DNA of 57,311 nucleotides from Theionarchaea archaeon (lineage in GTDB: Archaea; Methanobacteriota_B; Thermococci; Methanofastidiosales; SZ-28-30). Positions 30,001-54,000 of the stretch are shown one piece after another. Made by a program: the position numbers. The DNA is taken from NCBI GenBank assembly GCA_018992565.1, contig JACVGW010000009.1, forward strand, positions 1 to 57,311. The letters are read 5' to 3'. Numbering within the stretch: position 1 is the stretch's first letter; the number at the start of each line of letters is the position of its first letter.

Positions 30001-33000
30001 CCAATCGTGGACAAATTCCCCATAATCGACTTGTTCATCCCAATTTGCAGTCCCATAAATAGAATCAAAAGAAAAATCACTGCAGTATACCCCTTTTGTA
30101 TGAGAATCTTGTGGGATTCCTTGAGAGGGAGGATTCTCCCTATAATGATGCCGCAGACCAGTGAAAGAATAATATCTATCATAGTCATTGGTCTTTGCCA
30201 GTGTTTTTAAGGGTTCATGTAGTGTAGAAAGCTCGACTTCCCGCAAAGGTTTATCTTCCTGTGAGATACTAGACTCCCATGATAGACCAGTACAGAAAGA
30301 CCCATTCCCGATCCTGGAAATTCCATCAGAGGGCAGCAAAGGTCTTGCCCGGTGGAGATACCAGGTCAGTCACCTATTTCGATCCGTATCCCTGCTTCAT
30401 TGAGTCTGGTTCTGGATGCAGGATCTATGATGTGGATGGAAATGAGTATCTGGACTTTCTCAATAATTATACGGCCCTCATTCTGGGCCACGCCCATCCG
30501 CAGGTGGTGGCCAGAGTCACTCACCAGATCAAGAAAGGCACCGTCTATCCGGCACCCATTGAGGTTCAGACGGTGCTGGCAGAGGTCCTCACCAGGAGAA
30601 TTTCTTCCTGCAAGAAGATTAGATTCTGCAATTCAGGTACTGAAGCCAATATTCAGGCTCTTCGAGCTGCAAGAGCATTCACAAAGAGAAAGAAAGTGGT
30701 AAAAGTGTACCGGGGATACCATGGCAGTTTTGATTTTGATGACTCTGTTGATATTACCTTTAACGACCTGGAAAAGGCGGAAGGAATCATAAGAGAGAAC
30801 AAGGATGAGATTGCCTGCGTTATCATCGAACCTATCCTGGGCAAAGGAATGATACCTGCCACAAGAGAGTTCCTTTGCGGGCTGAGGGAGGTTACAGCTC
30901 AGTATGATATACTCCTTATCCTGGATGAAGTGGTGACCTTCAGATTGGATCTCGGAGGTGTGCAGAGCGTATACAAGGTCGAACCCGACATCACGGTGCT
31001 GGGAAAAGTGATTGGAGGAGGATTTCCGGTGGGGGCCTTCGGAGGAAGAGAGGACATACTGATGCAATTCTCTCCCCAGGAAGATGGGTTTATCCCGCAC
31101 TCAGGAACCTTCAATGGAAATCCCGTTACCATGGCTGCTGGACTGGAGACACTGAAGATACTGGATGGTCCTGCAATTAAGAGGCTGAACGACATGGGAG
31201 AGCACCTGAAAAAGGACCTCAATACTCTCCTGGAAGGTAAGGCATGCATATCAGGGATGGGTTCTCTTCTGCACTTCCAGGCTGCTGAAACACCTGCGTC
31301 AAGTGCTGAAGAATTCGAAACCCAGGATAGAGACTTCTTCAGGAACCTGCACATCCTCACGCTGTTGAATGGGATATACATGGCGCCCAGGGGGCTCTTC
31401 AATGTGTCTTTGCCCATGGGCGATACGGAGTTGGGTCAATTTACTGGATGTATCGAAGGGATCATTGATGATATAGCTCCTTAATGAGGAAATCCTGGCT
31501 TGATATCAGGCGTAATTCCTGAAGATTGTGTATTATCGGATTTCAAAAGAAGGTGCATTCTGAATTCAAGAAACACATATAAACATACCTTATTTACACT
31601 GTGAACAGAGGCTTTCACACCCTCTGAGGAGTCGGAAATATAAGGATTTTGAGATGTGCAGTCCTCTTTCGGATTTCGACTCCTCATTTCCTGTGGTTTT
31701 TCTTGCTCAAAGATTCAGAGTGTTACGGTGCAGTGCTCTATATGCTCCAGTTCTGTTGAAGATGCTTGATTCTGATATGTTGATGTGTAGCATTTGATTT
31801 TTTATACAAGAAAGAGACACATGCAAAAAAGAAATGGATCCCTGTATGATGGATATGCAGATAGTCTTCAAGAGTCTAGGTTGTGCGGAGAAAAATCACT
31901 TCAAGGCCTTTTTGCTCGCGATAGACTCCGGAGAACGAAAGGCTGCATCTCAATGGGAGCCCGCCGCAATAGGCACCAGTGGCTGTTAGTGTGCCCATGC
32001 GCCTGCAACCGACATTTCCTTTTCCTCCAGGGTATATGTGGTTCTCACTTTCCATGAGATACGTCTCCTCTTATCTTCCAAAATCCGCACTACTGTTTCT
32101 CGGGATCCTAAAGAGAAACAAGTATCTCTCGATCATGTGTATTATTCTTAAGGTTTTGTGACAGTGATGTTGCAGTTTTTTTTTCAGAGTCCAGAATCGG
32201 GCAGGAAAACGAAATCCAGAACCCAGAGATCAGGAACCTCGGCCCTTTTCACTATCTTTTTACATAATACTTTTCACAAATAATCACTCTTCATCGGGGA
32301 TAACTCATATAAATTGCACGATCTAGCATATCGTGCCTCTTGATTGAAGAAATCAAGGATAGGCCGGCCCTTCTGGGGCGCTTACTGCGTCTTACAGTCT
32401 CTTCATGTTTTCCCTCTGTGAAGATATTGGTGAGCTCCCAAGGGCCACAGCCTATTTCTCTGTTGAAATGGTGATTTCGCAACAAACGCATCGGATTCTG
32501 TCCCAAATGCTACAGACAGAAGGGAAAGGTAGTGGCGGCCTTTTCAGAGCCAGACATCAAGCAGACTCCATACTTACTCAATATAGGTGAGAATCTGTTG
32601 AACTGATTTGCGTGGCGGAGAATCAGGGTTATGATCGGGAATTCCAACAGGAACGAGGGCCAGTATCTCCCATGGCTCATGAATATTGAGAAGTCTTTCC
32701 AGTTCATCATGGGCATAGTATGGGATGCGAACCCAGCATGAACCATATCCACAGTCGAGAGCTGTCAGCAGGAGATTCTGAACTGCAGCCCCAACGCTCT
32801 GGACACTGACGAATCCCCCGTATCGATCAATGGCTCTATCTCTGAGGGCGCGTTCTTCTTGAAATATACGGAAATTTGGATCTCTCTCCAGGGAAAAGGG
32901 CATGACCAGCACTGCAAAGACCAGAGGTGCAGTCGAGAAAACCAATGAGGAGGCAATGCGCCGGGCCGCAGATTTATTATCTGTGTGGTTGAAGAAGGCA

Positions 33001-51000: not shown

Positions 51001-54000
51001 AGCCAGGGCTACGTTACAGGACCTCAGCTCAGGAAACGGTCATATGCGAATATGAAGGAATATGTTTGCTTCGTCAATTGTGAAAACCCCACTGAAGCAT
51101 ATCTCGATCTTAGCCAGGATGCAGCCGTTGTATATCACGCACGACTGGCAGGATTCGCCAGTTTATGGGTTAGTTCAACAAGAAAAGTGACCATTGATGG
51201 CACTCCCGTGATTAAAGGCCTGCGTTCAGACTATCATGTGTCATTTGCGCCCTATCGTTCATGGGAAAAGGCAATAGAAGTCATGCGGGGAAAGATTGAA
51301 TCCTTTCATCCAGAGTGTTATGAACCCACATCGCACATTAGCTCCCACTGGGATGAAACCATAACGTGGGATGAAGAAGATGAAAAGCTCTTTCGATACT
51401 TCGAGTCTGACTTGAGGAGGATTTTCGTACCTGTCATGAAGAAACATCTCATCAGCACAGGGAAAATCTACCAGTTCCTGGAAAGACTTCCTCAATGCTG
51501 TACTGTCACAACAAGCTTCTTTCCAGAGGGGATCTCAGCTTACGACCCTTATCTCTTTGTTTTTGGGACTGAATATGAGGATTTCATCGTTGATCTCTTT
51601 TCACAGATGCCGACATCAGCTTTCTTTTTCAAGGTCTCAGACATGCTCTTTCTTCATGCGCATGTAAAGAAGGACTTGATGAGATGCGAGGATTTGGGTG
51701 CTCCTAGCATACGTCAGCTGCCCATCCCGGGTCTCATCAGTGAACTCCTCAAGAAGGGAATCATTGAGAGTGAAGAACACGCTGTGGTTGAGTATCACTG
51801 GACAAAGAGTCTCTAGCAGCCATGGTTTTACAGGGTACGGAGAGGTATGTACTAGACGGTTCAGGTACATGAGCATGAGTCCAGGTACCCGAACAAGAGG
51901 AGAGAACAGGTGAATGTTTATAAATGTCCTGTATTAAGGACGAGGAATGGAAAAATCGGTGGAAAAATCATGACAGAGCAGATATTAGTAAAAGTCCTGG
52001 AAGATCCGAGACAGATAGAGCTGTTTGAGGATCCTCCCTACGGCCGCATCCTGGCTATCCTGCGGAATGGAGAACTCAACATAAAGGAGATACACAAGCG
52101 CTTCAATAAGAATTATGAGGACAAGAAAGCCCTTTCCTCTATCTACAGATATGTTGAGAAGCTGGTAGAACTGGACCTGGTTTATGTGAGCAAAGAAGTG
52201 AAAAAGAGGAAACATCTCACTGAAAGTTACTACTCAAGGACTGGTAAATTCTTTGTCTTTAGTGATAGAGATATTCTCAAGGCTGCAGCCGAACTACTCT
52301 CGCAAATGTATGGTCTCGATAAAGAGAAAGAACGAGAGCTTGAAGGACTCCTTGAGGAATATGATGGAAAAATATTGCGACACGACAGTGATTTCTACAG
52401 GGACTGTTCCCAGGCAATTCTTGAGATGGAAAAAGAATATGGATTCAAGATCCTTGCAGGGGCGACATATGTTATCCACCAGATACTTTATCCCAGGAAA
52501 TACCCTGAACTAGGCAAGGATGTATTTGAATTCCTTGAGAGTGCAGAAAATCCTTCAGCACTTCTTCCAGAGACGTCCACGTGATCTCTACATGGAAATA
52601 TTACATTCTCAGTAGAGTGATGTCACCTTCAGGGCAGGAAGGCCAACTCAGGGAAGTTTACATCCAGCTCTGCCTCGTCTTTGATCCACTGATTGTTCTT
52701 TATATAATCGTCACTGCATTTCTTTTATTACGAGCCACAGCTGCTATGATGGTGTCAGATTTTCAGAGGATTGCCACCAAATTCTACGATATCCAGCTCA
52801 TGACACTGTCTTGAATTGACCACTCACCGTCCTCTTTGACAAGGAATACGTAATACCCTGCCCCGTATAGCCAGTCGCATTGTCCTCCCAGGTAGACGAC
52901 AGCTTTGTTCATATCAGAATTAAACCCTACCCGGGAAAAGGTGAGAATGCCCTGCGCGTCGGGATATCGCGAATAGAATTCGCTCCAGCCACCGGATTCC
53001 TGGAAAATCTCGCTGAATTCGTCTGGCTCAAGGAGGAGCACATCCTTCTGGATATCGAAGTTGTCCACAAGGGGATATGATTCTTCGTTCTTGTCAATGA
53101 AATCATCGATCATCTCCTGGGTGAGGGAGGGCATGTCGTCCCTCACCCATTCGAGAATGTCTAATAAGCCAGAGTCGCCGAACGTGTCTGGAGTGGTGTA
53201 CTTGTCAATCACAATCACTTCCACCTCATCATAGTCCCGAAAACAGGAAGCAATCATACCAAATCCCTTTTCGATCAGTGTACTGTATACATTGTACTCT
53301 TCTGCTAGTACTTCGTTTGTCGGAGACGGAGTAGAAGGTGGTGGAGGCGTATACCCACAGGACTCAGAATGTTCCTCAATGAGATGATCATATACGCATT
53401 CCCCATTTATGCAGGTCATTGCCCATAGTTCTGTCGAAATGCAGGCGTTCTCGCATACTACATCCCGACAGGGATCATATCCACAGCTTGGTGAATTTTC
53501 TTCCACAATTTGAGAGTCTACACATTCTCCATTAACGCATTCCTGTTTCCACAAGGTTTCTCCCCTGCACACATCACCACAGGTGACGTCCTTGCAGGGA
53601 TCCTGCCCAATGCATGAAAGCACCAATACGATAGAAATAATGAGCCCATACACATGTTTCATGGTAATGGTAGTGCGTGGACTCATATAAAGGTTGCTGG
53701 CTCTTAACATATTCTTTTCCGCTTCTTCAGTGCACTGATCCAGGGAATCTCTTTTCATGCATTCCTGGCAGAACTGCCAGTTCTTCAACTGCGCATTTGA
53801 TTCTCAAAGCCTACATAGAAATCCTTTAGAACGTGCCAGTTGTCTTCAATGAATGCTGCAGGAAGAATGCAGTCCAGGGTTCTCTACAGAAGAGAAGAAA
53901 AATAGAATGAGAAAAAGAAGGAAATTCATCTCTTCACAAGTAACCGCTTCATCATTCTCCCATGGATACGTGCGACAGCATTGAACAGATGAAGGCTTCC

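What a model noticed while it worked through the whole genome (the two positions that open the first line are those of the whole stretch)
32574..51816. Genus-specific expansion of peptide-maturase radical-SAM and TldD/PmbA genes with many candidate precursors
G000 carries about 70 SPASM-type and at least 22 B12-binding radical-SAM genes, about 3% of its genes, and 8 TldD/PmbA pairs. They are grouped into many small clusters with RRE proteins, transporters and short Cys-rich or otherwise conserved ORFs. The densest island is C13:32574-51816, with 8 radical-SAM genes, 2 tandem-RRE genes and 3 precursor-like ORFs. The expansion is shared with two congeneric genomes and is not seen in the rest of the order.
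Evidence so far: - 66-member BLASTP family, 61 with CX3CX2C, plus at least 5 more in annotation gaps. - 37 of 39 representatives are below every NCBIfam cut-off, with RiPP maturases as best hits. - 22 B12 radical-SAM genes; 0 of 12 over a cut-off. - SPASM matches: 30/19/25 in the genus, 4 in G003, 0-3 in 17 other genomes. - TldD/PmbA matches: 16/16/19, against 5 in G003, 2-7 in f2, and 2 in each MCR-bearing relative. - Precursor-like families: F3 at C71:19789-21771; F4 at C4:7390-7862; F5 at C133:17499-20708, with a G001 orthologue at 62-65% identity; F6 at C49:1294-1952. - 'Theionarchaea' with 'radical SAM' gave 2 papers. The one I opened is not about this; the other was seen in the search listing only.
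(Added by a program. Inside this text positions count along the whole contig: contig position 1 is position 1 of the stretch shown here. "Call 12" and the like, gene names such as g00115 and contig names such as C1 are that model's own, and its searches are not shown. The text may have been shortened before it was handed on; [...] marks where a part breaks off. The agent that wrote the report below was given it as the finding of a first reader that could run no searches.)

Follow-up and report, generated by a model that had tools for sequence, protein, structure and literature searches.

The report
Archaeal island of peptide-crosslinking enzymes
A 19-kb stretch found in one species of a sediment archaeon packs eight radical-SAM enzymes, two peptide-binding helper proteins and three small cysteine-rich peptides that they most likely crosslink, and it is the densest example of a large expansion of such genes in this genus.

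Summary
Window 32574-51816 carries 8 radical SAM genes, 2 tandem-PqqD (RRE) genes and 3 short Cys-rich ORFs. The genome-wide counts also reproduce: 116 Radical_SAM, 67 SPASM-domain, about 22 B12-rSAM and 16 TldD/PmbA matches. These are 3-5 times, and for SPASM more than 5 times, the numbers in every other genome of the order or phylum searched.

New findings:
- The genes form a 19-kb island (about 31686-50754). It is missing from the otherwise collinear site in congener G001.
- Two precursors belong to a real family with an MKAxxxNKKLW leader. Its dN/dS is 0.12, and 15 database clusters hold relatives.
- That family travels with a conserved cassette of CteB-like rSAM/SPASM orthogroups plus a rare tandem-RRE protein.
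- Two paralogous maturases share a recently exchanged N-terminal RRE: 91% identity there against 33% elsewhere.

The most likely function is leader-guided thioether crosslinking. The nearest tested archaeal enzyme is CrpC.

Two points are not supported. TldD/PmbA pairs show no physical link to these clusters. The island itself is not shared within the genus. I rate it a new variant of a known kind.

The parts
31686..50754 (.). Species-specific 19-kb island. Its flanks are collinear with congener G001 contig C23, where only about 590 bp lie between the matching edges.
   Evidence: the edge matches are window 31535-31686 and 50754-50820; an independent run's contig spans 31363-41629, and another spans 50609-51199.
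32574..33203 (-). Nitroreductase-family flavoprotein inside the island. It may be a tailoring enzyme or a passenger gene.
   Evidence: Pfam PF00881 at 7.9e-33. It is below all NCBIfam cut-offs.
33676..34260 (+). Tandem-PqqD (two RRE-like halves) protein of sub-cluster 1. The start is refined to the ATG that has a GAGGTGA Shine-Dalgarno motif.
   Evidence: PqqD at 5.9e-10. Internal repeat. Start site. TATA-like motif at 33613-33625.
34257..35624 (+). Type A rSAM/SPASM maturase (CteB-like).
   Evidence: CX3CX2C plus the full 7-Cys SPASM motif. TIGR04085 match.
35648..36349 (+). Class I SAM methyltransferase, likely a tailoring enzyme.
   Evidence: A 32%-identical methyltransferase closes the related metagenome cassette L016.
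36372..37538 (-). Type B rSAM/SPASM protein. It has no N-terminal RRE and its best family hits are ACGX/TIGR04053-like.
   Evidence: 52% identical to 43086-44357. Variant SPASM cysteine pattern.
37522..38907 (-). Type A rSAM/SPASM maturase, 37 nt downstream of pre1 on the same strand.
38944..39093 (-). pre1: a 49-aa precursor candidate with 8 Cys in its last 23 residues.
   Evidence: GAAGGTGA Shine-Dalgarno motif, CATATAA box. Weak likeness to the C30 NKKTW precursor (E 0.018). No orthologue found in G001-G003.
39476..40447 (-). Tandem Lrp/AsnC-like HTH protein ('HTH-320'), a paralogue of 50851-51816. Possibly a regulator.
   Evidence: 53% identity to the paralogue. Fold.
40972..40984 (+). TATA-like 13-mer AAATCATATAAAC upstream of pre2. 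It recurs at 47106-47118 and, with one mismatch, at 33613-33625.
   Evidence: There are 8 hits with at most 1 mismatch in the 2.8-Mb genome, and 3 of them are here.
41108..41272 (+). pre2: a 54-aa precursor with an NKKLW leader and a Cys/Gly/Pro-rich core.
41609..42961 (+). Type A rSAM/SPASM maturase, orthogroup A3. Its likely start is at MRMSTY.
   Evidence: 56% identical to the precursor-adjacent enzymes of C29 and G001:C18, and 63% to that of L016.
41600..41812 (+). One arm of a 213-nt inverted repeat (92% identity). It encodes the N-terminal RRE shared with the 48912 gene.
   Evidence: dS 0.22; 91% against 33% aa identity. Unitigs break at the repeat, and the depth there is doubled.
43086..44357 (-). 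Type B rSAM/SPASM protein.
   Evidence: A 58%-identical homologue sits in the C30 cassette.
44643..46082 (+). Type A rSAM/SPASM maturase, orthogroup A1. It always lies next to a tandem-RRE gene.
   Evidence: (gene call of 479 aa). Model at pLDDT 89, with CteB as the best fold match.
46229..46855 (+). Tandem-RRE protein of the NKKLW cassette.
   Evidence: PqqD at 3.5e-18. Paralogues at C30, C62 and C97. A rare architecture. Complex model with pre3 gives weak support.
47242..47409 (+). pre3: a 55-aa precursor with an NKKLW leader.
   Evidence: An 87%-identical orthologue, P0109, lies in another MAG.
47567..48925 (-). Type A rSAM/SPASM maturase, orthogroup A2. Its likely start overlaps the stop of the upstream gene.
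   Evidence: A 54%-identical homologue sits in the C30 cassette.
48912..50255 (-). Type A rSAM/SPASM maturase, orthogroup A3'. It carries the other arm of the RRE repeat (50052-50264).
50851..51816 (+). Tandem Lrp/AsnC-like HTH protein just outside the island. It is conserved at 78% in G001, which has no island.

Best explanation
The stretch is a species-specific genomic island in a Theionarchaeon (order Methanofastidiosales). It encodes two linked RiPP pathways.

**Cassette 1 (about 33.7-39.1 kb).** It holds pre1, two CteB-like (type A) rSAM/SPASM enzymes, one shorter (type B) rSAM/SPASM enzyme, a tandem-RRE protein and a methyltransferase.

**Cassette 2 (about 41.1-50.3 kb).** It holds two precursors, pre2 and pre3, which share an MKAISLNKKLW leader but have different Cys-rich cores. 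With them are four type A enzymes of three orthogroups (A1, A2 and two copies of A3), one type B enzyme and a tandem-RRE protein.

**Proposed mechanism.** Every step below is inferred; none was shown here.
- The conserved leader is held by RRE domains. These are the N-terminal RRE of the type A enzymes and the separate tandem-RRE protein that always sits beside A1.
- Each rSAM enzyme cleaves SAM at its CX3CX2C cluster and abstracts a hydrogen from the core peptide.
- Helped by the two auxiliary SPASM clusters, it joins a Cys sulfur to a carbon of another residue, giving a sactionine- or ranthionine-type thioether.
- Several distinct enzymes per precursor would give several kinds or positions of crosslink. 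The methyltransferase may add a further modification.

The two A3 enzymes carry a recently homogenised RRE, so both should read the same leader. No protease or exporter is encoded locally. Leader removal and the site of action therefore remain open.

The island is the largest of 25 multi-rSAM loci in a genome whose genus has multiplied these families. The paralogues are old (none reaches 70% identity), and individual clusters differ between species.
For: **Enzymes**
- 8 of 8 have CX3CX2C. The 6 type A enzymes have the complete SPASM pattern CX13GX4C...CX2CX5CX3C...C. All 8 match TIGR04085.
- Best solved relatives by sequence are CteB (5wgg, 4.6e-19) and anSME for type A, and SkfB and PqqE for type B.
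- The A1 model (pLDDT 88.9) aligns over its full length to CteB (E 2e-18, TM 0.6-0.7). TigE, anSME, SuiB and ChlB follow.
- Best NCBIfam hits are CefB, TIGR04463, Clo7bot and PapB, all maturases of Cys-rich substrates.
- TIGR04463 contains CrpC of Methanococcus voltae, shown to install ranthionine links (PMC13692751: abstract and sections 8 and 14 read).

**Precursors**
- pre2 and pre3 have a conserved GGAGGTGA ribosome-binding site and a shared TATA-like 13-mer.
- Leader dN/dS is 0.12 at dS 1.07. The C29/G001 orthologue pair gives 0.18.
- A profile search found 15 database clusters at E<=0.01 among 37 candidates. All have the leader and hypervariable Cys/Gly-rich cores.
- G000 has 5 members and G001 has 1. 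None was found in 29 other relatives.

**Conserved neighbourhood**
- C30 repeats RRE2-A1-precursor and the convergent B-A2-A3 genes.
- C62 and C97 have RRE2-A1. C29 and G001:C18 have precursor-A3.
- Metagenome contig L016 has precursor-A3-RRE2-A1-A-MT. L015 has three tandem precursors.
- Tandem-RRE genes abut an rSAM gene in 6 of 6 cases, against 1.1 expected.

**RRE exchange**
- A 213-nt inverted repeat is 92% identical, with dS 0.22. Residues 1-68 are 91% identical and the rest 33%.

**Complex model of the tandem RRE with pre3**
- The verdict was weak support: median score 0.60 against a best control of 0.01.
- The runs share at least 52% of contacts, and partner pLDDT is at least 46.
- The mark was reached by 116 of 157 solved complexes and by 2 of 215 mismatches. 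At 0.60 or under, only 18 of those 157 reached it, as did both mismatches.
- My own alignments were used, and solved RRE-leader complexes exist, so the pass may reflect likeness only.

**The island is real**
- The 38900-47500 stretch is held nearly whole by 20 runs from 7 studies.
- Independent contigs bridge both island edges.
- Flanks: 20 of 20 left-flank ORFs (8394-31484) and 5 of 7 right-flank ORFs are collinear with G001, while 0 of 12 island ORFs are.
Against: - No product, modification or transcript has been observed.
- All 8 enzymes score far below the cut-off of every named NCBIfam maturase family (for example CefB 110-168 bits against 600, TIGR04463 84-150 against 525). No equivalog assignment, and so no chemistry, can be transferred.
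- The second-best fold match, TigE, makes C-C bonds, so a CteB-like fold does not fix the reaction.
- None of the five precursors tested matches any NCBIfam precursor model at E<=10, apart from one chance-level hit.
- pre1 has no orthologue in G001-G003. It rests on position, its ribosome-binding site and its composition.
- No leader peptidase or transporter lies in the island or in the other NKKLW loci examined. The one exception is a MATE gene 1.2 kb upstream of the tandem-RRE gene in C62.
- The complex pass is of the weak class.
- Four to five SPASM enzymes per precursor family is unusual, so some may act on other substrates.
Confidence: 0.7

Rival explanations
1. The clusters are RiPP pathways, but the chemistry is not thioether formation. 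The SPASM enzymes would make C-C or C-O crosslinks, cyclopropyl groups, epimers or similar. The many cysteines of the cores would then serve as metal ligands or disulfides in the finished peptide.
For: - The fold search lists TigE (8vpo, E 5.7e-16), SuiB and ChlB just behind CteB.
- NCBIfam lists cyclophane formers (YhhB, GrrM/OscB, FxsB, XyeB), DynA and ryptide maturases at E 1e-12 to 1e-29.
- Several distinct enzymes per precursor suggest several chemistries.
- pre2 and pre3 cores also hold Trp, Tyr, His, Phe and Pro.
- The CrpA product is suspected to bind metals (PMC13692751, section 14).
Against: - The four best family hits of all six type A enzymes are maturases of Cys-rich substrates.
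- The only invariant core residues across the family are Cys and Gly.
- The closest solved enzyme (CteB) and the closest tested archaeal enzyme (CrpC) both make thioethers.
Confidence: 0.2
2. The rSAM/SPASM genes serve non-peptide or large-protein roles, such as cofactor, lipid or enzyme maturation (as in AhbD/NirJ, Tes, anSME or QhpD). The short ORFs would then be incidental.
For: - Type B proteins hit NirJ, AhbC/AhbD, the mycofactocin maturase and PqqE at E 1e-33 to 1e-41, and Tes (7tol) at 1.8e-6.
- The neighbouring HTH-320 proteins have the NirDL siroheme-decarboxylase architecture.
- No protease or exporter lies in the island.
Against: - Those hits are 2.5- to 5-fold below the family cut-offs.
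- HTH-320 matches no NCBIfam model, and one copy stays in G001 without the island.
- The short ORFs are under purifying selection, are conserved in 15 database clusters and keep the same enzyme neighbours in other genomes.
- PqqD/RRE proteins are peptide chaperones by family.
Confidence: 0.06
3. The island is an assembly or binning artefact, or foreign DNA wrongly joined to this contig.
For: - G000 is a 154-contig assembly at 88% completeness.
- The island is missing from G001.
- Its GC content is slightly lower than that of the left flank: 43-48% against 44-50%.
Against: - A 10,267-nt contig from a run of a different study spans the left edge (31363-41629). Another spans the right edge (50609-51199).
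- The only breaks are at the 213-nt repeat, where depth doubles.
- 20 runs from 7 studies hold the stretch.
- The closest homologues of the island's enzymes, precursors and HTH protein that carry names are all labelled Theionarchaea or Methanofastidiosia.
Confidence: 0.03

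Closest known systems
CteB / SCIFF system of Clostridia (thioether-forming rSAM/SPASM maturase with an N-terminal RRE; PDB 5wgg/5why)
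   Same: It is the best solved match by sequence (4.6e-19) and by fold (E 2e-18, about 470 aligned columns). Domain order is the same: RRE, rSAM, then SPASM with 7 Cys. The substrate is a short Cys-rich peptide, and the gene pair has no dedicated protease or exporter (the last point about SCIFF is recalled).
   Different: - Identity is 21-22%, and the SCIFF maturase model TIGR03974 scores 68-100 bits against a cut-off of 425.
- The precursors have a different leader and match no known precursor model.
- There are 3-5 enzymes per precursor rather than one.
- A separate tandem-RRE protein is present.
- The host is an archaeon.
CrpC/CrpA of Methanococcus voltae (family TIGR04463; ranthionine links on a Cys-rich protein; PMC13692751)
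   Same: It is archaeal, has the RRE-rSAM-SPASM architecture, and has three [4Fe-4S] clusters. Its Cys-rich substrate has a leader-like N-terminus shared by two neighbouring substrates. TIGR04463 is the second-best NCBIfam hit of five of the six type A enzymes.
   Different: - Scores are 84-150 bits against a cut-off of 525, so the island enzymes are not members.
- CrpA is a 29-kDa repeat protein, whereas these substrates are 49-55 aa.
- That survey excluded proteins under 100 aa (section 8).
CefB 'Cys-every-fifth' maturase (NCBIfam NF038107) and PapB-type ranthipeptide maturases (NF047865)
   Same: CefB is the top NCBIfam hit for all six type A enzymes. Cys spacing in the pre2/pre3 cores is 4-7 residues.
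   Different: The scores are 110-168 bits against 600 for CefB, and 94-132 against 340 for PapB. To my knowledge there are no experimental data for CefB (recalled).
ACGX-system and TIGR04053 rSAM/SPASM proteins of methanogens (TIGR04340)
   Same: These are the best hits of the two type B enzymes. Like them, they are short SPASM proteins without an RRE.
   Different: The scores are 137-158 bits against 400. No ACGX-repeat peptide model matched the precursors.
PqqD and stand-alone RRE chaperones (PqqD/PqqE, lasso B1, MftB)
   Same: Both island proteins pass the Pfam PqqD cut-off and lie beside rSAM enzymes.
   Different: - Here two PqqD-like halves are fused in one protein of about 200 aa.
- Among the 129 hits in 1.84 billion representatives, only 12 span both halves. 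Two of those 12 are longer fusions of 568-598 aa.
NirDL/AhbAB siroheme decarboxylase and Lrp/AsnC regulators (compared with the HTH-320 proteins)
   Same: Both have two HTH-plus-RAM-like units in one chain. The best fold match is 4ch7 (E 3e-6), and single Lrp/AsnC regulators match each half.
   Different: Identity is 12% with TM about 0.5 and rmsd 12.8 Å. There is no NCBIfam match, and the Pfam HTH hits are below cut-off. There are about 20 paralogues per genome.

Membership tests
Radical SAM superfamily | CX3CX2C motif and a Pfam PF04055 match over the cut-off | tested here: met
   8 of 8 island enzymes meet both.
SPASM subfamily (two auxiliary 4Fe-4S clusters) | C-terminal 7-Cys pattern and a TIGR04085 match over the cut-off | tested here: met
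   All 8 match TIGR04085 over the cut-off. The 6 type A enzymes have the canonical CX2CX5CX3C block plus flanking Cys. The 2 type B enzymes have a CX2CX9CX5C variant.
RRE-dependent RiPP maturase (CteB-like) | An N-terminal winged-helix RRE domain ahead of the rSAM core | tested here: met
   The A1 model has a beta-strands-plus-helices domain at residues 9-63 and aligns to CteB over its full length. This was modelled for one of the six type A enzymes only. The others align to it from their N-termini.
RiPP biosynthetic gene cluster | An adjacent precursor gene with a conserved leader and a variable core | tested here: met
   For pre2 and pre3: leader dN/dS 0.12, cores unalignable, 15 database relatives, and conserved enzyme neighbours. 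For pre1 the evidence is position and composition only.
Sactipeptide / ranthipeptide class | Cys-S to C-alpha or C-beta/gamma thioether links in the product | not testable with these tools
   This needs mass spectrometry of the modified peptide. It is inferred from the nearest enzymes only.
Named NCBIfam maturase equivalogs (CefB NF038107, TIGR04463/CrpC, Clo7bot, PapB, SCIFF maturase, ACGX TIGR04340, TIGR04053) | Whole-protein score at or above the curated cut-off | tested here: not met
   The best scores are 94-168 bits against cut-offs of 340-600.
Known precursor families (SCIFF, ACGX-repeat, nif11-like and others in NCBIfam) | A match to a precursor model | tested here: not met
   0 relevant families at E<=10 for the 5 precursors tested.
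PqqD / RRE chaperone | Pfam PF05402 over the cut-off | tested here: met
   39.8 and 66.1 bits against a cut-off of 23.4. The second half is recognised by internal similarity.
TldD/PmbA as the leader peptidase of these clusters (microcin B17 model) | Co-location or another specific link with the SPASM/RRE/precursor clusters | tested here: not met
   4 of 8 pairs lie within 3 kb of any rSAM gene, against 1.67 expected (P 0.066). None of those 4 neighbours is a SPASM cluster. Action in trans cannot be tested here.
Lrp/AsnC transcription regulators (HTH-320 proteins) | An HTH_AsnC/HTH_24 domain plus a RAM (AsnC_trans_reg) domain over the Pfam cut-offs | tested here: inconclusive
   The HTH hits are below the cut-offs and there is no RAM hit. 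The fold is two Lrp-like units.

The most novel reading that the evidence does not exclude
This Theionarchaeal genus maintains a large, fast-turning-over repertoire of small Cys-rich peptides. Each would be knotted by a cassette of three to five different SPASM enzymes and guided by a dedicated tandem-RRE chaperone.

That would be a new RiPP class with several kinds of crosslink in one 20-30-residue core, and the first radical-SAM RiPP family native to Archaea.

The co-expanded tandem-Lrp sensors (about 20 per genome) and TldD/PmbA pairs (8 per genome) would be the matching receptors and processing proteases. Together these would form a peptide signalling or sulfur/metal-handling system peculiar to the genus.
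Probability: 0.2. Interest if true: 0.8.

Novelty: new variant of a known kind. Interest (0 to 1): 0.62.

Why it matters
Radical-SAM RiPPs from archaea are so far predicted rather than characterised. The 2025 archaeal RiPP survey says so in the passages I saw (PMC12144867). The one tested archaeal SPASM thioether enzyme I found acts on a protein of 29 kDa (PMC13692751).

This island offers a compact set of parts that can be tested directly:
- Two precursors share one leader.
- The enzymes fall into defined orthogroups.
- The tandem-RRE chaperone has a rare architecture.
- There is a natural example of RRE exchange between paralogous maturases.

It also shows that about 4% of the coding capacity of an uncultured sediment archaeon is radical SAM enzymes (rough estimate: 116 genes in 2.8 Mb). 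Their clusters differ between sister species, a pattern usual for molecules involved in interaction with other cells or with the environment.

Tried and rejected
- **RNA evidence.** No RNA holder was listed among the 23 runs returned, so nothing can be said on expression.
- **Partial cover in run X18.** It covered only 9 of 30 bins of the stretch. I draw no conclusion about a strain lacking part of the island.
- **The search for related loci in genome contigs.** The NKKLW alignment (115 pattern stretches) and the tandem-RRE protein (110 stretches) both gave no confirmed relative. The tandem-RRE alignment was too variable to search with.
- **NCBIfam on five precursors.** No family matched.
- **Rfam and tRNA scans.** The window gave no Rfam match at gathering scores. 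There are no tRNA genes and I found no flanking direct repeats, so no integration signature.
- **pre1 in G001-G003.** Only a 15-residue chance-level hit appeared.
- **ORF 33225-33869(-), 214 aa.** It has no Pfam or NCBIfam match and no paralogue, and it overlaps the tandem-RRE gene. I treat it as spurious.
- **ATG at 32405, downstream of a TATA-like motif.** It has no ribosome-binding site, so I rejected it as a precursor.
- **HTH-320 as a cluster-specific regulator.** Co-location is no better than chance at 3-5 kb. One copy persists in G001 without the island.
- **Published antiSMASH table (supplement of PMC12144867; the stored text is cut).**
  - It has 71 rows for order Methanofastidiosales, 20 of them Methanofastidiosaceae. 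At least 51 rows therefore belong to other families and may include clusters of this genus.
  - I could not locate those rows. Parts 24 and 77 of 400 were read, and phrase searches failed.
- **Literature searches.** Searches on 'Theionarchaea'/'Methanofastidiosa' with 'radical SAM' or 'biosynthetic gene' returned 2, 4 and 4 papers. Passages of two of them were read and do not treat this topic. The rest were seen in search listings only.

Full report
**1. What is in the interval**

Pfam finds a Radical_SAM domain in eight ORFs of window 32574-51816: 34257-35624+, 36372-37538-, 37522-38922-, 41321-42961+, 43086-44357-, 44547-46082+, 47567-49129- and 48912-50336-. Other ORFs in the interval:
- PqqD is found in two ORFs of about 205 aa (33649-34260+, 46229-46855+).
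- There is a class I methyltransferase (35648-36349+) and a nitroreductase-family protein (32574-33203-).
- Two 321-323-aa proteins have weak HTH hits (39476-40447-, 50851-51816+).

All-against-all BLASTP splits the enzymes into two types.
- Six are 'type A' proteins of about 450 aa, 24-42% identical to each other.
- Two are shorter 'type B' proteins, 52% identical to each other.

The same comparison shows the two PqqD proteins are internally duplicated. Residues 6-110 of one align with 105-205 of the other (E 7e-8).

All eight enzymes keep CX3CX2C. The six type A enzymes keep the complete seven-cysteine SPASM pattern. The two type B enzymes have a CX2CX9CX5C variant, and all eight match TIGR04085.

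Ribosome-binding sites place the likely starts at 33676, 38907, 41609, 44643, 48925 and 50255. With these starts the type A enzymes are 447-479 aa long. The 47567 gene then overlaps the stop of the 48912 gene by 14 nt.

**2. The short ORFs**

Three Cys-rich ORFs sit in the gaps between genes: pre1 (38944-39093-, 49 aa), pre2 (41108-41272+, 54 aa) and pre3 (47242-47409+, 55 aa).

Evidence that pre2 and pre3 are real genes:
- They share the leader MKAISLNKKLW.DV.M..LDFVSPDC, but their cores cannot be aligned.
- Their DNA is alignable from 13 nt upstream of the ATG through the leader. It includes a conserved GGAGGTGAT ribosome-binding site.
- Over codons 1-35 there are 13.5 synonymous and 9.5 non-synonymous differences, giving dS 1.07 and dN 0.127 (ratio 0.12).

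The same family occurs at G000 C29:9269, C97:6233 and C30:26636, and at G001:C18. The C29/G001 orthologue pair has a dN/dS ratio of 0.18.

A profile of five members retrieved 15 clusters at E<=0.01 among 37 candidates from the 5.8-billion-protein collection.
- All have the leader followed by Cys/Gly-rich cores such as GCGCGCGGCCCPFLCVVLIC.
- The named ones are labelled Theionarchaea or Candidatus Methanofastidiosia archaeon.
- One, P0109, is an 87%-identical orthologue of pre3.

A profile search of 31 relatives found 5 members in G000, 1 in G001 and none in the other 29 genomes. No NCBIfam model matches these peptides.

pre1 rests on weaker evidence:
- It has a GAAGGTGA site 6 nt before its ATG.
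- It lies 37 nt upstream of the type A gene 37522-38907 on the same strand.
- It has 8 Cys in its last 23 residues.
- It has a weak likeness (E 0.018) to the C30 family member.
- No orthologue was found in G001-G003.

**3. A conserved cassette**

Gene maps of the other family loci and of two metagenome contigs show recurring partners.
- C30 holds tandem-RRE, an A1 enzyme (46% to 44547) and a precursor. These face convergent type B (58% to 43086), A2 (54% to 47567) and A3 (50% to 48912) genes. This is the same order as window 44.6-50.3 kb.
- C62 and C97 hold tandem-RRE followed by A1 (51%).
- C29 and G001:C18 hold a precursor followed by A3 (56% to 41321) and a further type A enzyme.
- Contig L016 holds precursor, A3 (63%), tandem-RRE (46%), A1 (54%), a type A enzyme and a methyltransferase (32% to 35648).
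- Contig L015 holds three precursors in tandem.

Tandem-RRE genes abut an rSAM gene in 6 of 6 cases, against 1.1 expected from random placement.

The tandem-RRE architecture is rare. Of 129 hits at E<=0.001 among 1.84 billion representatives, I count 12 that span both halves. Two of those are 568-598-aa fusions. The rest are single PqqD domains.

**4. An exchanged RRE**

A 213-nt inverted repeat (41600-41812 / 50052-50264, 92% identical) covers the 5' ends of the two A3 genes. Within it dS is 0.22. Protein residues 1-68 are 91% identical, and the remaining 376 aligned positions are 33% identical.

In the A1 model this N-terminal region is the strand-plus-helix domain that precedes the rSAM barrel. 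The simplest reading is a recent gene conversion that keeps both enzymes tuned to the shared pre2/pre3 leader. This is an inference.

**5. What the enzymes resemble**

By sequence, the best solved relatives of type A are CteB (4.6e-19) and anSME. For type B they are SkfB and PqqE.

The A1 model (mean pLDDT 88.9, pTM 0.88) matches CteB over 461-489 columns (E 2e-18, TM 0.59-0.69). TigE, anSME, SuiB and ChlB follow.

In NCBIfam the top hits of all six type A enzymes are CefB ('Cys-every-fifth'), TIGR04463, Clo7bot or PapB. For type B they are the ACGX-system protein and TIGR04053. Every score is 2.5-6 times below the curated cut-off.

TIGR04463 includes CrpC of Methanococcus voltae. A 2026 paper shows that CrpC binds three [4Fe-4S] clusters and installs ranthionine links on the Cys-rich protein CrpA (PMC13692751: abstract and sections 8 and 14 read). 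That study excluded proteins under 100 aa.

Thioether formation is therefore the best-supported chemistry. It is inferred, and membership in any named family fails the score test.

**6. Does the leader meet the RRE?**

I ran one complex prediction of the tandem RRE (alignment of 15 rows) with pre3 (14 rows).
- The result was 'weak support': median score 0.60, best control 0.01.
- The runs agree in at least 52% of contacts. Partner pLDDT is at least 46.
- The mark is reached by 116 of 157 solved complexes and by 2 of 215 mismatches. At 0.60 or below, only 18 of those 157 reach it, as did both mismatches that passed.
- The counts hold only roughly, because my own alignments were used.
- RRE-leader complexes have been solved, so the pass may reflect likeness.

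**7. The island as a unit**

Twenty of 20 ORFs between window 8394 and 31484 have collinear counterparts on G001 contig C23, at 59-93% identity. So do 5 of 7 ORFs between 50851 and 56834 (76-82%). None of the 12 island ORFs does. The island's HTH gene hits only the G001 orthologue of 50851-51816, at 50%.

DNA matches fix the edges at window 31686 and 50754. About 590 bp separate the matching points in G001, which carries an aldo-keto reductase gene just before them.

Searching the 19.35-kb island against G001, G002 and G003 gave 12, 1 and 0 matches. All are 311 nt or shorter, at 67-82% identity, and paralogous.

The flanks are housekeeping genes: CysRS, DNA polymerase B, Lon, FBPase, POR, Hdr/Mvh-like proteins, NFACT and NIF3. 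I found no tRNA gene or flanking direct repeat.

The island is not an assembly artefact.
- The stretch 38900-47500 is held at 95% or more of sampled words by 20 runs from 7 studies. These are marine sediment, estuary, mangrove, soil and sediment metagenomes, and 13 of the 20 are flagged as possible sources.
- In run X14, from another study, one contig covers 31363-41629 and another covers 50609-51199.
- The breaks fall at the 213-nt repeat, whose unitig has about twice the depth.

A TATA-like 13-mer, AAATCATATAAAC, has 8 hits with at most 1 mismatch in the whole genome. Three of them lie about 50-135 nt upstream of the tandem-RRE gene at 33676, pre2 and pre3. This suggests shared transcriptional control, which is an inference.

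**8. The genome-wide claim**

Counts in G000:
- 116 PF04055 matches, 113 over the cut-off.
- 68 TIGR04085 matches, 67 over the cut-off.
- 36 PF13186 matches.
- 26 PF02310 matches, of which I count 22 inside rSAM ORFs.
- 22 PqqD matches.

The rSAM genes form 64 loci when gaps of up to 4 kb are allowed: 39 singletons, 11 pairs, 7 triplets, 4 of four, 2 of five and one of eight, which is this island.

Single-linkage families at E<1e-40 hold 30 (type A), 24 (type B and relatives) and 15 (B12-type) members. Of 107 proteins with a paralogue, the best-paralogue identity is 20-40% for 70, 40-60% for 32, 60-70% for 5, and never reaches 70%. The expansion is therefore old and diversified, not a recent burst.

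Among relatives, the genus stands apart in every count.

| Family | Genus g1 (G000 / G001 / G002) | G003 | Others |
|---|---|---|---|
| PF04055 | 116 / at least 81 / at least 77 | 25 | 14-28 in 27 genomes |
| SPASM (TIGR04085) | 75 / 47 / 49 candidates | 3 | 0-11 matches in 129 genomes |
| TldD/PmbA (PF19289) | 16 / 16 / 19 | 5 | 2-7 in f2; 1-2 in 21 genomes |

The closest named homologues of A1 are all labelled Theionarchaea or Methanofastidiosia.

A filter on 766 short ORFs near rSAM genes kept 34. The filter required at least 3 Cys in the last 30 residues plus a Shine-Dalgarno-like motif. Many of the rest are probably noise.

**9. What does not hold**

TldD/PmbA:
- 4 of 8 pairs lie within 3 kb of an rSAM gene, against 1.67 expected (P 0.066).
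- In those four loci the rSAM neighbour is TYW1, a 329-aa rSAM beside PCMT, or a B12-type rSAM. No SPASM, RRE or precursor gene is present.
- A role as a trans-acting leader peptidase stays possible but has no support here.

No protease or exporter lies in the island. The other NKKLW loci have none either, apart from one MATE gene in C62.

**10. The HTH-320 proteins**

The model (pLDDT 92.3) shows two HTH-plus-beta-alpha-beta units in tandem. The best fold match is the NirDL siroheme decarboxylase (4ch7, E 3e-6, TM 0.5, 12% identity). Single Lrp/AsnC regulators match each half.

All 106 homologues found are full length, except four truncated forms covering 58-88% of the query. The named ones are labelled Theionarchaea or Methanofastidiosia.

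The family has 19, 26 and 26 matches in the three genomes of the genus. G003 and G004 have 1 each, and 26 other relatives have none. This is a third genus-specific expansion.

The family does not sit closer to rSAM genes than chance at 3-5 kb. At 10 kb it is mildly closer: 11 of 19 against 6.35 expected (P 0.024). The copy at 50851 is conserved in G001 without the island. I treat these proteins as probable ligand-sensing regulators. Their link to the peptides is unproven.

**11. Prior knowledge**

Three searches combined 'Theionarchaea' or 'Methanofastidiosa' with 'radical SAM' or 'biosynthetic gene'. They returned 2, 4 and 4 papers. I read passages of two (PMC9635834, PMC11459464), and they concern methane metabolism and annotation pipelines. 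The others were seen in listings only.

The 2025 survey of archaeal RiPPs (PMC12144867, passages read) names rSAM-modified RiPPs as predicted and widespread in archaea. Its main text does not mention Theionarchaea.

Its supplementary antiSMASH table (stored text cut) has 71 rows for order Methanofastidiosales, 20 of them Methanofastidiosaceae. At least 51 rows that I could not locate may therefore already list some of these clusters as generic 'ranthipeptide' or 'RRE-containing' regions.

In what I could search, I found nothing in print on the following: the NKKLW precursor family, the tandem-RRE partner, the multi-enzyme cassette, the RRE exchange, or the size of the expansion.

**12. Verdict**

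The island is a new variant of a known kind (rSAM/SPASM RiPP clusters). It has several unusual features and lies in a lineage where no such product has been characterised.

Noticed in passing
window 39476-40447(-), 50851-51816(+); about 19 loci in G000: A 320-aa family with two Lrp/AsnC-like units in tandem (NirDL-like architecture). It has 19/26/26 copies in the genus, 1 each in G003 and G004, and none in 26 other relatives. It is a third genus-specific expansion beside rSAM and TldD/PmbA.
   Followed up: yes
window 33613-33625, 40972-40984, 47106-47118 (+); weaker copies at 31572, 32302, 41506: The TATA-like 13-mer AAATCATATAAAC occurs 6 times in the window with at most 2 mismatches, against 1.4 expected. 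All copies are on the + strand, in or at the edge of the island. Genome-wide there are only 8 hits with at most 1 mismatch.
   Followed up: partly
window 53926-55366 (-): A 'putative sensor'/HAAS membrane protein and a PadR regulator are also absent from the collinear G001 region. This is a second small indel next to the island.
   Followed up: no
window 51910-52584 (+); paralogues at G000 C68:17195 and C18:6839: A 224-aa protein without a Pfam match is conserved in G001. Its C18 paralogue carries an ArsR-type HTH and sits directly upstream of a TldD/PmbA pair.
   Followed up: partly
L010 (G001:C18) 1995-7643 (-): An 1882-aa RHS-repeat ORF lies right beside the two rSAM genes of the G001 NKKLW cluster.
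   Followed up: no
L015 (metagenome contig) 4260-5145: Three NKKLW precursors of 52, 60 and 57 aa lie in tandem behind two rSAM-like genes. Their cores differ from one another.
   Followed up: partly
G000 C128:10549-10725 (-), C71:19789-21771, C4:7390-7862, C15:1442-1585, C17:14346-14459: Further precursor-like ORFs lie next to rSAM genes. They include one with four CALEVQPTF repeats (C128), three MKCEKVE paralogues (C71) and two MYI(R/K)SEIEEISMEIDQCMCC paralogues (C4).
   Followed up: no
L005 11-1092 (G001:C23): The G001 orthologue of the aminotransferase at window 30279-31484 is split into two overlapping ORFs (11-670 and 670-1092). This may be a frameshift or an assembly error.
   Followed up: no
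window 24189-27250: An 893-aa fused FAD/NAD oxidoreductase with ferredoxin domains is followed by an MvhD/FlpD-like protein. Ferredoxin and CCG-domain (HdrB-like) genes precede it. This heterodisulfide-reductase-like module sits in a lineage said to have lost Mcr.
   Followed up: no
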